Assembly (NCBI RefSeq): GCF_016026235.1
Contig: NZ_CP065613.1
Length of the DNA stretch: 64,000 nt
Source of the DNA: Escherichia coli
Lineage (GTDB): Bacteria > Pseudomonadota > Gammaproteobacteria > Enterobacterales > Enterobacteriaceae
Reading direction: 5' to 3' (one strand)
Shown: positions 6,362 through 8,010 of the stretch, one piece after another
Layout of the letters: every line of letters begins with the position of its first letter
Position numbering within the stretch: the first letter of the stretch is position 1
The notes under the pieces: generated by a model
Told to the model about the DNA's origin: nothing
Seen by the model: only the letters and a program-made list of their open reading frames with translations
Database searches by the model: none
Made by a program: the position numbers and the translations under genes

Positions 6362-6424
6362 GTCAGATAAGGCGTTTTCGTCGCATCCGACATTCGCACA
6401 CGATGCCTGATGCGACGCTGGCTG
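6362..6424. repeat. REP/BIME-type extragenic palindrome
   Basis: gtaggtcagataaggcg...gcatccgacat...gatgcctgatgcgacgctg, classic REP consensus. Confidence 0.6.
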
Positions 6425-6454
6425 AACTGAACCCCAAAACCTGGACAGTTTCAG

Positions 6455-7177
6455 TTAACCGGCTTTTTGATACTCAGTCCGGTATTCTACCGAGCTGAGT
6501 CCCCCAAGACTGAGTTTTATTCTTTTTTGATTCCAGTAAGTTATGTATTCGTTAACAGCATTTTCCAGCTCTTCTACACTTCTGTAGTCCCGGCGATAGT
6601 ACATTTCTTCTTTCAGGTGACCAAAGAAATTCTCCATTACCGCATTATCAAGGCAGTTGCCCTTGCGCGACATGCTCTGCACTAACCCTTTGTCTGCCAG
6701 GGCAGACTGATAACTTTTTATCCGGTAATGCCACCCTTGATCACTGTGGAGCAGCGGTTTTTCTCCTTCTGCAAGGCTTTCCAGCCCCTTATTTAACATG
6801 CGCTTCACCAGCTCCTCTGTAGGCCTGCAGGCAGTTTCCCACGCCACGATTTCCCCGTTAAACAAATCAAGTATCGGGGACAGGTACAGTTTTTGTCCGC
6901 CAGCCCTGAATTCGGTGATATCTGTCACCCATTTCTCACAGGGAGCTTCCGCTTTGAACTGCCGCTGAAGGATATTTTCTGCAGCGAGTCCCATATTTCC
7001 CCGGTAAGACCGGTATTTCTTCAGGCGCACAGGAGACTTCAGGCCGAGCTGTTGCATCAGTTTTCGCACTGTTTTGCCACTGAACTTAAGACCTCTTTTC
7101 TGAAGCTCACAATGGATCCGCCGGTACCCATAACATCCCCAGTGTTCATGGAAGATGGAGGCTATGAGCTGTTTCAC
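6455..7177 (-). CDS. insK: IS150 transposase OrfB (DDE catalytic part); normally made as an OrfAB fusion by -1 frameshifting, so the true N-terminus lies upstream in the orfA overlap
   Basis: 240 aa ORF with rve/integrase-core-like sequence (HSDQGWHY..., ...ELENAVNEYITYWN). Confidence 0.8.
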   Translation of the reverse strand: MKQLIASIFHEHWGCYGYRRIHCELQKRGLKFSGKTVRKLMQQLGLKSPVRLKKYRSYRGNMGLAAENILQRQFKAEAPCEKWVTDITEFRAGGQKLYLSPILDLFNGEIVAWETACRPTEELVKRMLNKGLESLAEGEKPLLHSDQGWHYRIKSYQSALADKGLVQSMSRKGNCLDNAVMENFFGHLKEEMYYRRDYRSVEELENAVNEYITYWNQKRIKLSLGGLSSVEYRTEYQKAG

Positions 7178-7281
7178 ATCAGCATACTTGTCCTTAGCCT
7201 TCTGCAGTGACAGCTGGTAGTACAGCGTGCTTCTGGCCAGCCCTGCAGCCTTTAACAGGTCAGACTGGCAGTGTCCGCACT

Positions 7282-7812
7282 TCAGGCTCTGGATGACTTT
7301 CGTTTTTTCTCCAGCTCCTGGCGCTTTTTTTCCAGGAGATGCTCCTGCATGGCTTTCAGATATGCATTTTCTGCGCGAAGATAACGCAGCTCATTCTTCA
7401 TCTCTTCCGGCGTCATGTTTCCCTCGTTTTCATGGGTATCATCAGAACGGGTCATGCTTTTCTCCTTCCTGCGCCTGATAAAGGCCTCATTACCAGATTT
7501 GCGGTAGCCTTTTATCCAGTTTTTAACCATGTTGTGGCTGAGAATGTTAAACCGGGCAGCTACCCGGGGTAGAGACTCAGAATGCCCGAGAGCATAAAGA
7601 ACCACGCAAAGTTTATCTTCAGGAGAATAGCTACGCTTGTGTCTGCAATCCAGTGCCTGAGGACCGTGAAGAAGAAAAAGATTAATCCAGTGTGAGAGGC
7701 TGGTGTGAGAAAGTTGAAAGAGTTTTGCCGTAGAAATGATGCCTGCATGACCGGCCAGGTAATGATTTACAGCGGCAAGTTTTACTTCAAATGAATGTTT
7801 CATAAACTGCAC
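7282..7812 (-). CDS. insJ: IS150 OrfA (HTH DNA-binding protein)
   Basis: 176 aa ORF MKHSFEVKLAAVNHYLAGHAGIISTAKLFQLSHTSLSHWINLF... recognised as IS150 InsJ. Confidence 0.9.
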   Translation of the reverse strand: MQFMKHSFEVKLAAVNHYLAGHAGIISTAKLFQLSHTSLSHWINLFLLHGPQALDCRHKRSYSPEDKLCVVLYALGHSESLPRVAARFNILSHNMVKNWIKGYRKSGNEAFIRRRKEKSMTRSDDTHENEGNMTPEEMKNELRYLRAENAYLKAMQEHLLEKKRQELEKKRKSSRA

Positions 7813-7908
7813 CTTCAGATGTCAGATTATGTCCAACATTTGGGGTGCAGTTCATGGCGCGTCTTATCAGGCCTAAAGGGATTTCTAACTCATTGATAAA
7901 TTTTTTTT

Positions 7909-8010
7909 TGTAGGTCGGATAAGGCGTTCACGCCGCATCCGACATTTGCACAAGATGCCTGATGCGACGCTGTCCGCGTCTTATCAGGCCTACGTGCGGC
8001 ATCAGACAAA
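7909..8010. repeat. REP/BIME cluster
   Basis: Two REP units (taggtcggataaggcgttcacgccgcatccgacat... and ...gcgtcttatcaggcctacgtgcggcatcagaca). Confidence 0.6.

What the first reader, a model, noticed from the sequence alone, without database searches (positions are those of the whole stretch)
6362..8010. IS150 inserted in a REP/BIME cluster between mutT and yacG
REP palindromes flank both ends of the element, so the IS landed within the repetitive extragenic region. The short mutT-yacG spacer is therefore enlarged by ~1.4 kb without disrupting either gene. IS150 copy number and position vary between E. coli lineages.
Basis: partly seen in the sequence, partly recalled or inferred. Interest (0 to 1): 0.35.

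Follow-up and report, generated by a model that had tools for sequence, protein, structure and literature searches.

The report
IS1397 inserted in a REP hairpin loop

Summary
A complete insertion sequence lies at window 6423..7854 (1432 bp, transposase on the minus strand). Its ends are imperfect inverted repeats (TGAACTG...CAGTTCA, 21 of 25 matching), and it is flanked by a perfect 4-bp target duplication, TGGC. Removing the element and one TGGC restores the K-12 mutT-yacG spacer exactly across the junction.

It is not IS150. It shares 54% DNA identity and 40% OrfAB identity with K-12 IS150. It is 98-99% identical to copies that RefSeq annotates as "IS3-like element IS1397 family", and 97.8% identical to the CFT073-type copy that Tobes & Pareja (2006) call IS1397.

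The element does not merely sit among REPs. It splits one Z2-type REP at its 4-nt hairpin loop, and that loop is the duplicated TGGC. This is the published behaviour of IS1397, and I reproduced it here. Eight of 9 other genomic copies, and 40 of 43 metagenomic IS1397 sites, abut a REP half-site, against about 1% in a random control.

mutT and yacG are convergent and both are intact. The insertion is rare: 2 of 5,426 complete E. coli genomes have an IS1397 in this spacer, and one of those is an independent hit in a neighbouring REP. Verdict: already known, low interest.

The parts
5972..6361 (+). mutT (8-oxo-dGTP diphosphatase), intact. Its stop codon directly abuts the first REP.
   Evidence: 129-aa ORF. 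Annotated as mutT in the near-identical FDAARGOS_943 locus.
6362..6393 (.). Y-type REP (palindromic unit) next to mutT, left intact by the insertion.
   Evidence: Inverted and direct repeats I2, I4 and D1. Present in the K-12 empty site. The Y/Z2 naming comes from my own knowledge of the BIME nomenclature.
6405..6418 (.). Left arm of the targeted Z2-type REP (GCCTGATGCGACGC).
   Evidence: Inverted repeat I1 pairs it with 7859-7872 across the IS. The two arms are contiguous in K-12.
6419..6422 (.). Target-site duplication, left copy (TGGC). This is the loop of the REP hairpin.
   Evidence: The fold of the reconstructed REP has a 4-nt loop, TGGC.
6423..7854 (-). IS1397, complete 1432-bp copy.
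   Evidence: 98-99.9% identical to copies annotated 'IS3-like element IS1397 family transposase'. 97.8% identical to the nlpE/yaeF copy that matches the CFT073 IS1397 site of PMC1525189 Additional file 13. 54% identical to IS150.
6423..6447 (.). Terminal inverted repeat at the orfB-proximal end (IRR): TGAACTGAACCCCAAAACCTGGACA.
   Evidence: (I1) and 6: 21 of 25 positions match the other end. Ends are TG...CA.
7830..7854 (.). Terminal inverted repeat at the orfA-proximal end (IRL). Its reverse complement reads TGAACTGCACCCCAAATGTTGGACA.
7282..7803 (-). orfA (173 aa from the ATG; HTH DNA-binding domains).
   Evidence: Pfam HTH_28, 63.9 bits.
7324..7330 (-). A AAA AAG slippery heptamer for the programmed -1 frameshift, in the zero frame of orfA.
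   Evidence: RefSeq annotates the CDS as 'programmed frameshift' in L001, L002, L005-L008.
6455..7803 (-). orfAB fusion transposase, 449 aa and uninterrupted. DDE triad D295, D355, E391, with K at E+7.
   Evidence: NCBIfam NF033516 IS3 family transposase, 377 bits against a cut-off of 160. Pfam HTH_21, rve and rve_2.
7855..7858 (.). Target-site duplication, right copy (TGGC).
7859..7872 (.). Right arm of the targeted Z2-type REP (GCGTCTTATCAGGC).
   Evidence: (I1, D3).
7886..7898 (.). TAACTCATTGATA in the 35-nt linker. It fits the reverse complement of the IHF consensus WATCAANNNNTTR. This is inferred and was not tested.
   Evidence: Read directly from the sequence. The consensus is from my own knowledge. 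The linker is also present in K-12.
7914..7989 (.). Second Y REP (7914-7943) plus second Z2 REP (7957-7989) of the BIME, both uninterrupted.
   Evidence: D1, I8, I12. Identical in K-12.
8013..8210 (-). yacG (DNA gyrase inhibitor), intact and convergent with mutT.

Best explanation
An intact copy of IS1397 (IS3 family, IS150 subgroup) transposed into the BIME between the convergent genes mutT and yacG.

Shown here: the element is 1432 bp with TG...CA imperfect terminal inverted repeats. It encodes OrfA, and an OrfAB DDE transposase made by a -1 frameshift at A AAA AAG. It is bracketed by a 4-bp duplication, TGGC. The target was a single Z2-type REP, GCCTGATGCGACGC-TGGC-GCGTCTTATCAGGC, and the duplicated TGGC is exactly the 4-nt loop of that hairpin. 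The staggered cuts therefore fell on either side of the loop. Insertion at REP loops is the rule for this element across E. coli genomes and gut metagenomes.

Inferred from knowledge of the IS3 family: transposition is copy-out-paste-in through a circular intermediate. Target choice is made by the transposase, as stated in the title of Wilde et al. 2003, which I could not read.

Consequence: the spacer grows by 1,436 bp and one of the four full REP hairpins is destroyed. Neither coding sequence nor either promoter is touched, because both genes end at this spacer. The insertion is recent and lineage-restricted.
For: Identity: RefSeq names copies with 98-99.3% nucleotide identity 'IS3-like element IS1397 family transposase'. 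OrfAB is identical at 439-447 of 449 residues to those copies. The nlpE/yaeF copy (L011, 97.8% identical) has flanks that are the reverse complement of the CFT073 'IS1397 inserted into a REP' site in PMC1525189 Additional file 13.

Anatomy: IRs, TSD and length. Frameshift site, and a DDE triad with 60- and 36-residue spacing plus K at E+7. NCBIfam IS3 at 377 bits and Pfam HTH_28, HTH_21 and rve.

Empty site: the reconstructed sequence with one TGGC matches K-12 without interruption across the junction. 5,093 of 5,426 complete genomes cover at least 80% of it.

Target: the reconstructed REP folds to a hairpin of -11.6 kcal/mol (z = -4.1) with loop TGGC.

Specificity: 8 of 9 other chromosomal copies split a Y or Z2 REP at the loop, with 2-4 bp duplications. 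40 of 43 IS1397-like metagenome sites have a REP half-site within 30 nt of the IS tip, against 206 of 20,000 random windows. Literature: IS1397 inserts specifically within E. coli REPs (PMC1525189, PMC3184786).

Rarity: the mutT-IS junction occurs in 2 of 5,426 genomes, and the same two genomes appear at the yacG-side junction.
Against: I could not align the element to the ISfinder or GenBank reference sequence of IS1397, so the name rests on RefSeq annotation and on one literature-labelled site. The FDAARGOS_943 copy of this same insertion is annotated only as 'IS3 family transposase', probably because of an older annotation run. I found no significant frameshift-stimulating RNA structure downstream of the slippery site (z = -1.5) and no consensus sigma-70 promoter on the transposase strand. 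Activity of this copy is therefore inferred from its intactness only. The primary IS1397 papers (Clement 1999; Wilde 2001, 2002, 2003) are not held in the library, so I know their details only from titles and citing papers.
Confidence: 0.95

Rival explanations
1. It is IS150. On this reading it is a generalist IS3-family element that happened to land among REPs.
For: It belongs to the same family and subgroup and has the same architecture: two ORFs, an A AAA AAG frameshift, and a 3-4 bp duplication. The IR tips are similar (TGAACTGCACCCC here, TGTACTGCACCC in IS150).
Against: Global identity to K-12 IS150 is 54% for DNA and 40% for OrfAB, and the length is 1432 bp rather than 1443. A megablast of the element finds nothing at the K-12 IS150 locus. 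K-12 shows only a 64-nt relic at another locus.
Confidence: 0.01
2. The element is IS1397, but this strain acquired the occupied allele by homologous recombination of a mutT-yacG segment from another strain, not by transposition within its own recent ancestry.
For: The same insertion, with the same TSD and position, is present in FDAARGOS_943. That genome matches the window only up to about position 32,807 and lacks the prophage that follows, so the two genomes are not identical.
Against: Flanking DNA is 99.8-99.9% identical to FDAARGOS_943 over 32.8 kb. Simple shared descent explains this well. The perfect TSD and exact empty site show that the founding event was transposition at this site in any case.
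Confidence: 0.07
3. The copy is a dead relic that can no longer transpose.
For: Several widespread IS1397 copies are annotated as frameshifted pseudogenes (L009, L010, L011). No clear promoter or frameshift-stimulating structure was found.
Against: Both IRs are complete. OrfA and the 449-aa OrfAB are uninterrupted, the DDE triad is present, and the slippery site is in frame. The copy is 99.2-99.9% identical to copies found at several different loci in other genomes, which indicates recent mobility of this variant.
Confidence: 0.1
4. It is a different REP-targeting element, such as IS621 (IS110 family) or the Klebsiella element ISKpn1.
For: Both are reported to insert in REPs (PMC1525189).
Against: From my own knowledge, IS110-family elements lack terminal IRs and target duplications and use a DEDD transposase. 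This element has IRs, a 4-bp TSD and an rve DDE transposase scoring 377 bits to the IS3 model. IS621 inserts beside the palindrome rather than in it (PMC3184786). At 98-99% identity to E. coli copies annotated as IS1397, there is no room for a separate element.
Confidence: 0.01

Closest known systems
IS1397 (IS3 family, IS150 subgroup; E. coli)
   Same: 98-99.9% nucleotide identity to copies annotated as IS1397. Length 1432 bp, a two-ORF frameshifted DDE transposase, a 3-4 bp duplication, and insertion in the loop of a REP/PU inside a BIME.
   Different: Nothing of substance. This particular site, the first Z2 REP of the mutT-yacG BIME, is rare: 2 of 5,426 complete genomes have an IS1397 in this spacer, and only one shares this exact site.
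IS150 (IS3 family; E. coli K-12 insJK)
   Same: Same subgroup architecture, the same A AAA AAG frameshift heptamer, similar IR tips, and a 3-4 bp duplication.
   Different: 54% DNA and 40% protein identity, and 1443 bp rather than 1432. From my own knowledge, IS150 is not reported to target REP loops specifically.
ISKpn1 (IS3 family; Klebsiella pneumoniae)
   Same: A relative of IS1397 that also inserts in palindromic units. In both elements the transposase sets the target specificity, according to the titles of Wilde 2001 and 2003 as cited in PMC1525189.
   Different: It prefers a different host and a different PU type. I did not compare the sequences here.
IS621 (IS110 family; E. coli)
   Same: Also uses E. 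coli REPs as its target (PMC1525189, PMC3184786).
   Different: It has an unrelated DEDD recombinase and no IRs or TSD. It recognises a 15-bp sequence and inserts at the 3' side of the REP, outside the palindrome (PMC3184786), not in the loop.
ISPsy8, ISPpu9, ISPpu10 and ISPa11 (REP-targeting ISs of Pseudomonas)
   Same: The same lifestyle: insertion within species-specific REPs, at 100% association in the survey of PMC1525189.
   Different: Different hosts and REP families. Only ISPsy8 is stated there to belong to the IS3 family, and PMC12288879 places ISPpu9 in the IS110 family.

Membership tests
IS3 family | Two consecutive, partly overlapping ORFs that yield an OrfAB fusion by a programmed -1 frameshift at an A AAA AAG-type heptamer. 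| tested here: met
   orfA lies at 7803..7282, the heptamer at 7330..7324 is in the zero frame, and the fusion is 449 aa without a stop. RefSeq notes 'programmed frameshift'.
IS3 family | An rve-type DDE catalytic domain, DD(35)E with K/R seven residues after the E. | tested here: met
   Pfam rve 76 bits and rve_2 70 bits. NCBIfam NF033516 at 377 bits against a cut-off of 160. D295, D355 and E391, with K at E+7.
IS3 family | Imperfect terminal inverted repeats ending 5'-TG...CA-3', and a 3-4 bp target duplication. | tested here: met
   TGAACTG...CAGTTCA with 21 of 25 positions matching. TSD is TGGC.
IS1397 | Near-identity to the reference IS1397. From my own knowledge, ISfinder treats elements above about 95% identity as the same IS. 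| tested here: met
   The test is indirect. The element is 98.1-99.3% identical to copies RefSeq names IS1397 family. It is 97.8% identical to the copy at the CFT073 site that PMC1525189 labels IS1397. The reference record itself was not available to align.
IS1397 | Insertion within a REP/palindromic unit of a BIME. | tested here: met
   The IS splits a Z2 REP at its 4-nt loop. The same holds for 8 of 9 other genomic copies and 40 of 43 metagenomic sites.
IS1397 | Transposition activity and transposase-determined PU specificity. | not testable with these tools
   This needs a transposition assay. I know it only from the titles of Clement 1999 and Wilde 2003, cited in PMC1525189.
IS150 | Near-identity to IS150 of E. 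coli K-12 (1443 bp, insJ/insK). | tested here: not met
   54.4% nucleotide and 40.2% OrfAB identity, and 1432 bp rather than 1443.
BIME (bacterial interspersed mosaic element) | A cluster of REPs in alternating orientation separated by short conserved linkers, in an extragenic position. | tested here: met
   The order is Y, 13-nt linker, Z2, 35-nt linker, Y, 13-nt linker, Z2, between convergent genes. NCTC10444 has a three-unit version. Subtype names are from my own knowledge.

The most novel reading that the evidence does not exclude
The insertion might change expression of its neighbours. The transposase gene is transcribed towards the 3' end of mutT, with only one REP hairpin between them, and the insertion destroys the REP that used to follow. 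Read-through from the IS could therefore produce RNA antisense to mutT, or change the stability of the mutT or yacG mRNA 3' ends. Lower MutT would give a mild A:T-to-C:G mutator phenotype in this lineage. Nothing here supports this reading. It is simply not excluded.
Probability: 0.03. Interest if true: 0.4.

Novelty: already known. Interest (0 to 1): 0.12.

Why it matters
It matters little beyond correct annotation. Naming the element correctly turns an apparent coincidence, an IS sitting among REPs, into a textbook example of IS1397's specificity for REP loops. The insertion is a rare, lineage-specific marker: 2 of 5,426 complete genomes have an IS1397 in this spacer, and they represent two independent events in neighbouring REPs of the same BIME. 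That could be useful for strain typing. The survey done here adds modern numbers to the specificity described in 1999-2003. About 31% of complete E. coli genomes carry at least one near-full copy, and about 93% of sampled IS1397 sites abut a REP half-site, in either orientation and in both Y and Z2 units.

Tried and rejected
(1) Orientation bias. In the first 8 REP-associated copies, the IS had one fixed orientation relative to the BIME: all five Z2 targets were forward and all three Y targets were reversed. The metagenome sample rejected this, because both unit types occur in both orientations (for example L026 and L021 against L069 and L030, and L043 and L040 against L020 and L038).

(2) Frameshift-stimulating structure. 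The 106 nt starting 10 nt upstream of the slippery site fold no better than shuffled sequences (z = -1.5), so I make no claim.

(3) Promoter and terminator scan of 6300-8250. It found one promoter-like and one terminator-like site, both on the plus strand and no more than expected from shuffles. Nothing is usable for the transposase strand.

(4) Primary IS1397 papers (PMC94167, PMC95333, PMC169884, PMC135288). None is held. I relied on the citing papers PMC1525189 and PMC3184786.

(5) Other copies of the element in the 64-kb window. There are none.

(6) Sixteen of the 59 metagenome flanks came from other elements. They share only the 22-nt IR tip and show about 27% ungapped identity further in, so I excluded them from the IS1397 tally. 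Ungapped identity is a crude test, so a few could be IS1397 copies with indels.

Full report
**What is in the sequence**

The region 6362..8010 is the whole spacer between two convergent genes. These are mutT (5972..6361, + strand) and yacG (8013..8210, - strand), followed by zapD and coaE.

Inside the spacer is a discrete element at 6423..7854, 1432 bp long. Its ends read TGAACTG...CAGTTCA and match at 21 of the 25 terminal positions. On the minus strand it carries a 173-aa orfA (7803..7282). A second frame follows, reached by a -1 shift at an A AAA AAG heptamer (7330..7324) that lies in the zero frame of orfA. The resulting 449-aa OrfAB has no stop codons.

OrfAB scores 377 bits to the NCBIfam IS3-family transposase model, whose cut-off is 160. 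It contains Pfam HTH_28, HTH_21, rve and rve_2 domains. Its DDE triad is D295, D355 and E391, with the family-typical K seven residues after the E.

The element is bracketed by TGGC at 6419-6422 and 7855-7858.

**Is the insertion real?**

Yes. Deleting 6423..7858, which is the IS plus one TGGC, gives a sequence that aligns to the K-12 MG1655 mutT-yacG spacer without interruption across the junction. There are only two substitutions elsewhere in 231 nt.

Of 5,426 complete E. coli genomes, 5,093 cover at least 80% of this reconstructed empty site.

**Which IS is it?**

It is not IS150. I extracted the annotated IS150 of K-12 (NC_000913.3 3720633-3722075, 1443 bp) and aligned it. Identity is 54.4% for DNA and 40.2% for OrfAB. 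The IR tips are similar (TGAACTGCACCCC here, TGTACTGCACCC in IS150), which probably explains the misnaming.

A megablast of the element against the complete genomes finds 1,707 genomes with a near-full-length copy. The sampled copies are 97.5-99.9% identical, and RefSeq names most of them "IS3-like element IS1397 family transposase".

There is also an independent check from the literature. Additional file 13 of Tobes & Pareja 2006 (PMC1525189) shows the reconstructed REP into which "IS1397" is inserted in CFT073. Allowing for one substitution, that sequence is the reverse complement of the flanks of the nlpE/yaeF copy I retrieved (L011), which is 97.8% identical to the window element.

I could not align to the reference IS1397 record itself.

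**Where exactly did it land?**

The sequences touching the two ends are GCCTGATGCGACGC and GCGTCTTATCAGGC. Joined through a single TGGC, they form one Z2-type REP. As single-stranded DNA this REP folds into a hairpin of -11.6 kcal/mol (z = -4.1 against shuffles). Its 4-nt loop is exactly TGGC.

So the IS did not merely land among REPs. It split one REP at its loop, and the loop became the target duplication.

The rest of the BIME is intact and identical to K-12. It consists of:
- a Y REP at 6362-6393;
- a 35-nt linker containing an IHF-consensus-like TAACTCATTGATA (inferred, not tested);
- a second Y REP at 7914-7943;
- a second Z2 REP at 7957-7989.

**Is REP-loop insertion the rule for this element?**

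The held literature says IS1397 inserts specifically in E. coli REPs (PMC1525189, PMC3184786). I tested this directly in two samples.

*Complete genomes.* I looked at nine other copies at unrelated loci: tRNA-Pro, cbpM/torD, yddE/nhoA, araJ, ydcR, rrf, nlpE/yaeF, and the two mutT/yacG genomes. Eight split a Y or Z2 REP at the loop, with 2-4 bp duplications, one of them imperfect. The ydcR copy is not in a REP, and it is a frameshifted pseudogene.

*Metagenome contigs.* An exact-match scan for the 22-nt IS tip returned 86 ends and 59 distinct flanks. Sixteen of those belong to other elements that share only the tip. Of the remaining 43, 40 have a REP half-site within 30 nt of the IS end, against 206 of 20,000 random windows. 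One of the three exceptions, L077, sits in the loop of a non-REP GC-rich hairpin (AGCCCCTC-TC-CGGAGGGGCT).

Both REP types are used, in both orientations. This rejected an orientation bias that I had suspected from the first small sample.

**How common is this particular insertion?**

It is rare. The mutT-IS junction is found in only two complete genomes, and the same two appear at the yacG-side junction.
- FDAARGOS_943 has the identical insertion. Its IS is 99.86% identical and the flanks are 99.9% identical.
- NCTC10444 has an independent event. Its BIME has three Y-Z2 units, the IS lies in the second Z2 REP, and the duplication is GGT.

**Mechanism and consequences**

Shown here: anatomy, target, duplication, specificity and intactness.

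Inferred from knowledge of the IS3 family: copy-out-paste-in transposition through a circular intermediate, with the transposase making staggered cuts on either side of the REP loop.

Both neighbouring genes end at this spacer, so no promoter or coding sequence is affected. One of the four full REP hairpins is lost and the spacer grows by 1,436 bp.

I found no significant frameshift-stimulating fold and no consensus promoter on the transposase strand. Activity of this copy is therefore inferred from its intactness, and from its 99.2-99.9% identity to copies at several different loci in other genomes.

**Verdict**

The element is IS1397, a known REP-specific insertion sequence behaving as described in 1999-2003. 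Novelty: already known. Interest: low.

Noticed in passing
L012 1501-1564 (K-12 MG1655, NZ_CP010439.1 4344363-4344426); matches window 6424-6487: K-12 and roughly 1,800 other complete genomes that lack a full IS1397 carry a 64-nt relic of its orfB-proximal end, between yhhJ and yhhI (an ISAs1-like ISEc1 transposase). The outer flank of the relic is half of a Y-type REP (GGCCGGATAAGGCGTTTA). The inner side stops about 10 nt from the yhhI CDS. This looks like an old REP-loop insertion that was later truncated by ISEc1.
   Followed up: partly
window ~32808 to at least 40500: The window matches FDAARGOS_943 (ftsA to yacH, 99.8-99.9% identity) only up to about 32,807, where the match breaks inside yacH. 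The next 8 kb match lambdoid prophage genes: tyrosine integrase, ead/Ea22-like, antirepressor and DUF551. In FDAARGOS_943 these lie elsewhere, at 2.03 Mb. The window's genome therefore appears to have a prophage integrated in or next to yacH.
   Followed up: partly
window ~20994-24459: Between pdhR and aroP, the near-identical genome annotates a long TssD (Hcp) fusion protein followed by three bacteriocin-immunity genes. Window 22519-24441 contains internal repeats of about 80% identity. This looks like an orphan type VI effector and immunity array.
   Followed up: no
window ~16529-18885 and ~12055-13434: A GPH-family symporter and a GH43 glycoside hydrolase lie between aroP and ampE. hofB/gspE is annotated as a truncated pseudogene in FDAARGOS_943. 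I did not check the state of that gene in the window itself. The alignment over window 1-14287 has two gap openings that I did not locate.
   Followed up: no
L002 (NCTC10444) 3100-4880: A second, independent IS1397 insertion lies in the same mutT-yacG BIME of another lineage. It is in the second Z2 REP of a three-unit BIME, and its duplication is GGT.
   Followed up: yes
L077 (metagenome contig OHQM01005509.1): A 99.1%-identical IS1397 copy is inserted in the loop of a non-REP GC-rich hairpin, GCGGCTTTAGCCCCTC[TC]CGGAGGGGCTTT, which resembles a terminator. Its duplication is CTC. This hints that hairpin shape contributes to target choice.
   Followed up: partly
L080, L096, L066, L051, L042 and others (mostly environmental metagenome contigs): Sixteen loci carry other elements that share the exact 22-nt IS1397 IR tip but are unrelated further in, at about 27% ungapped identity. 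Several are flanked by ATGGCGACC-type sequences, and in L096 the flank forms a palindrome (AAATGGCGCCCCTAC...GTAGGGTCGCCATTT). They may be relatives that target other repeat families.
   Followed up: no
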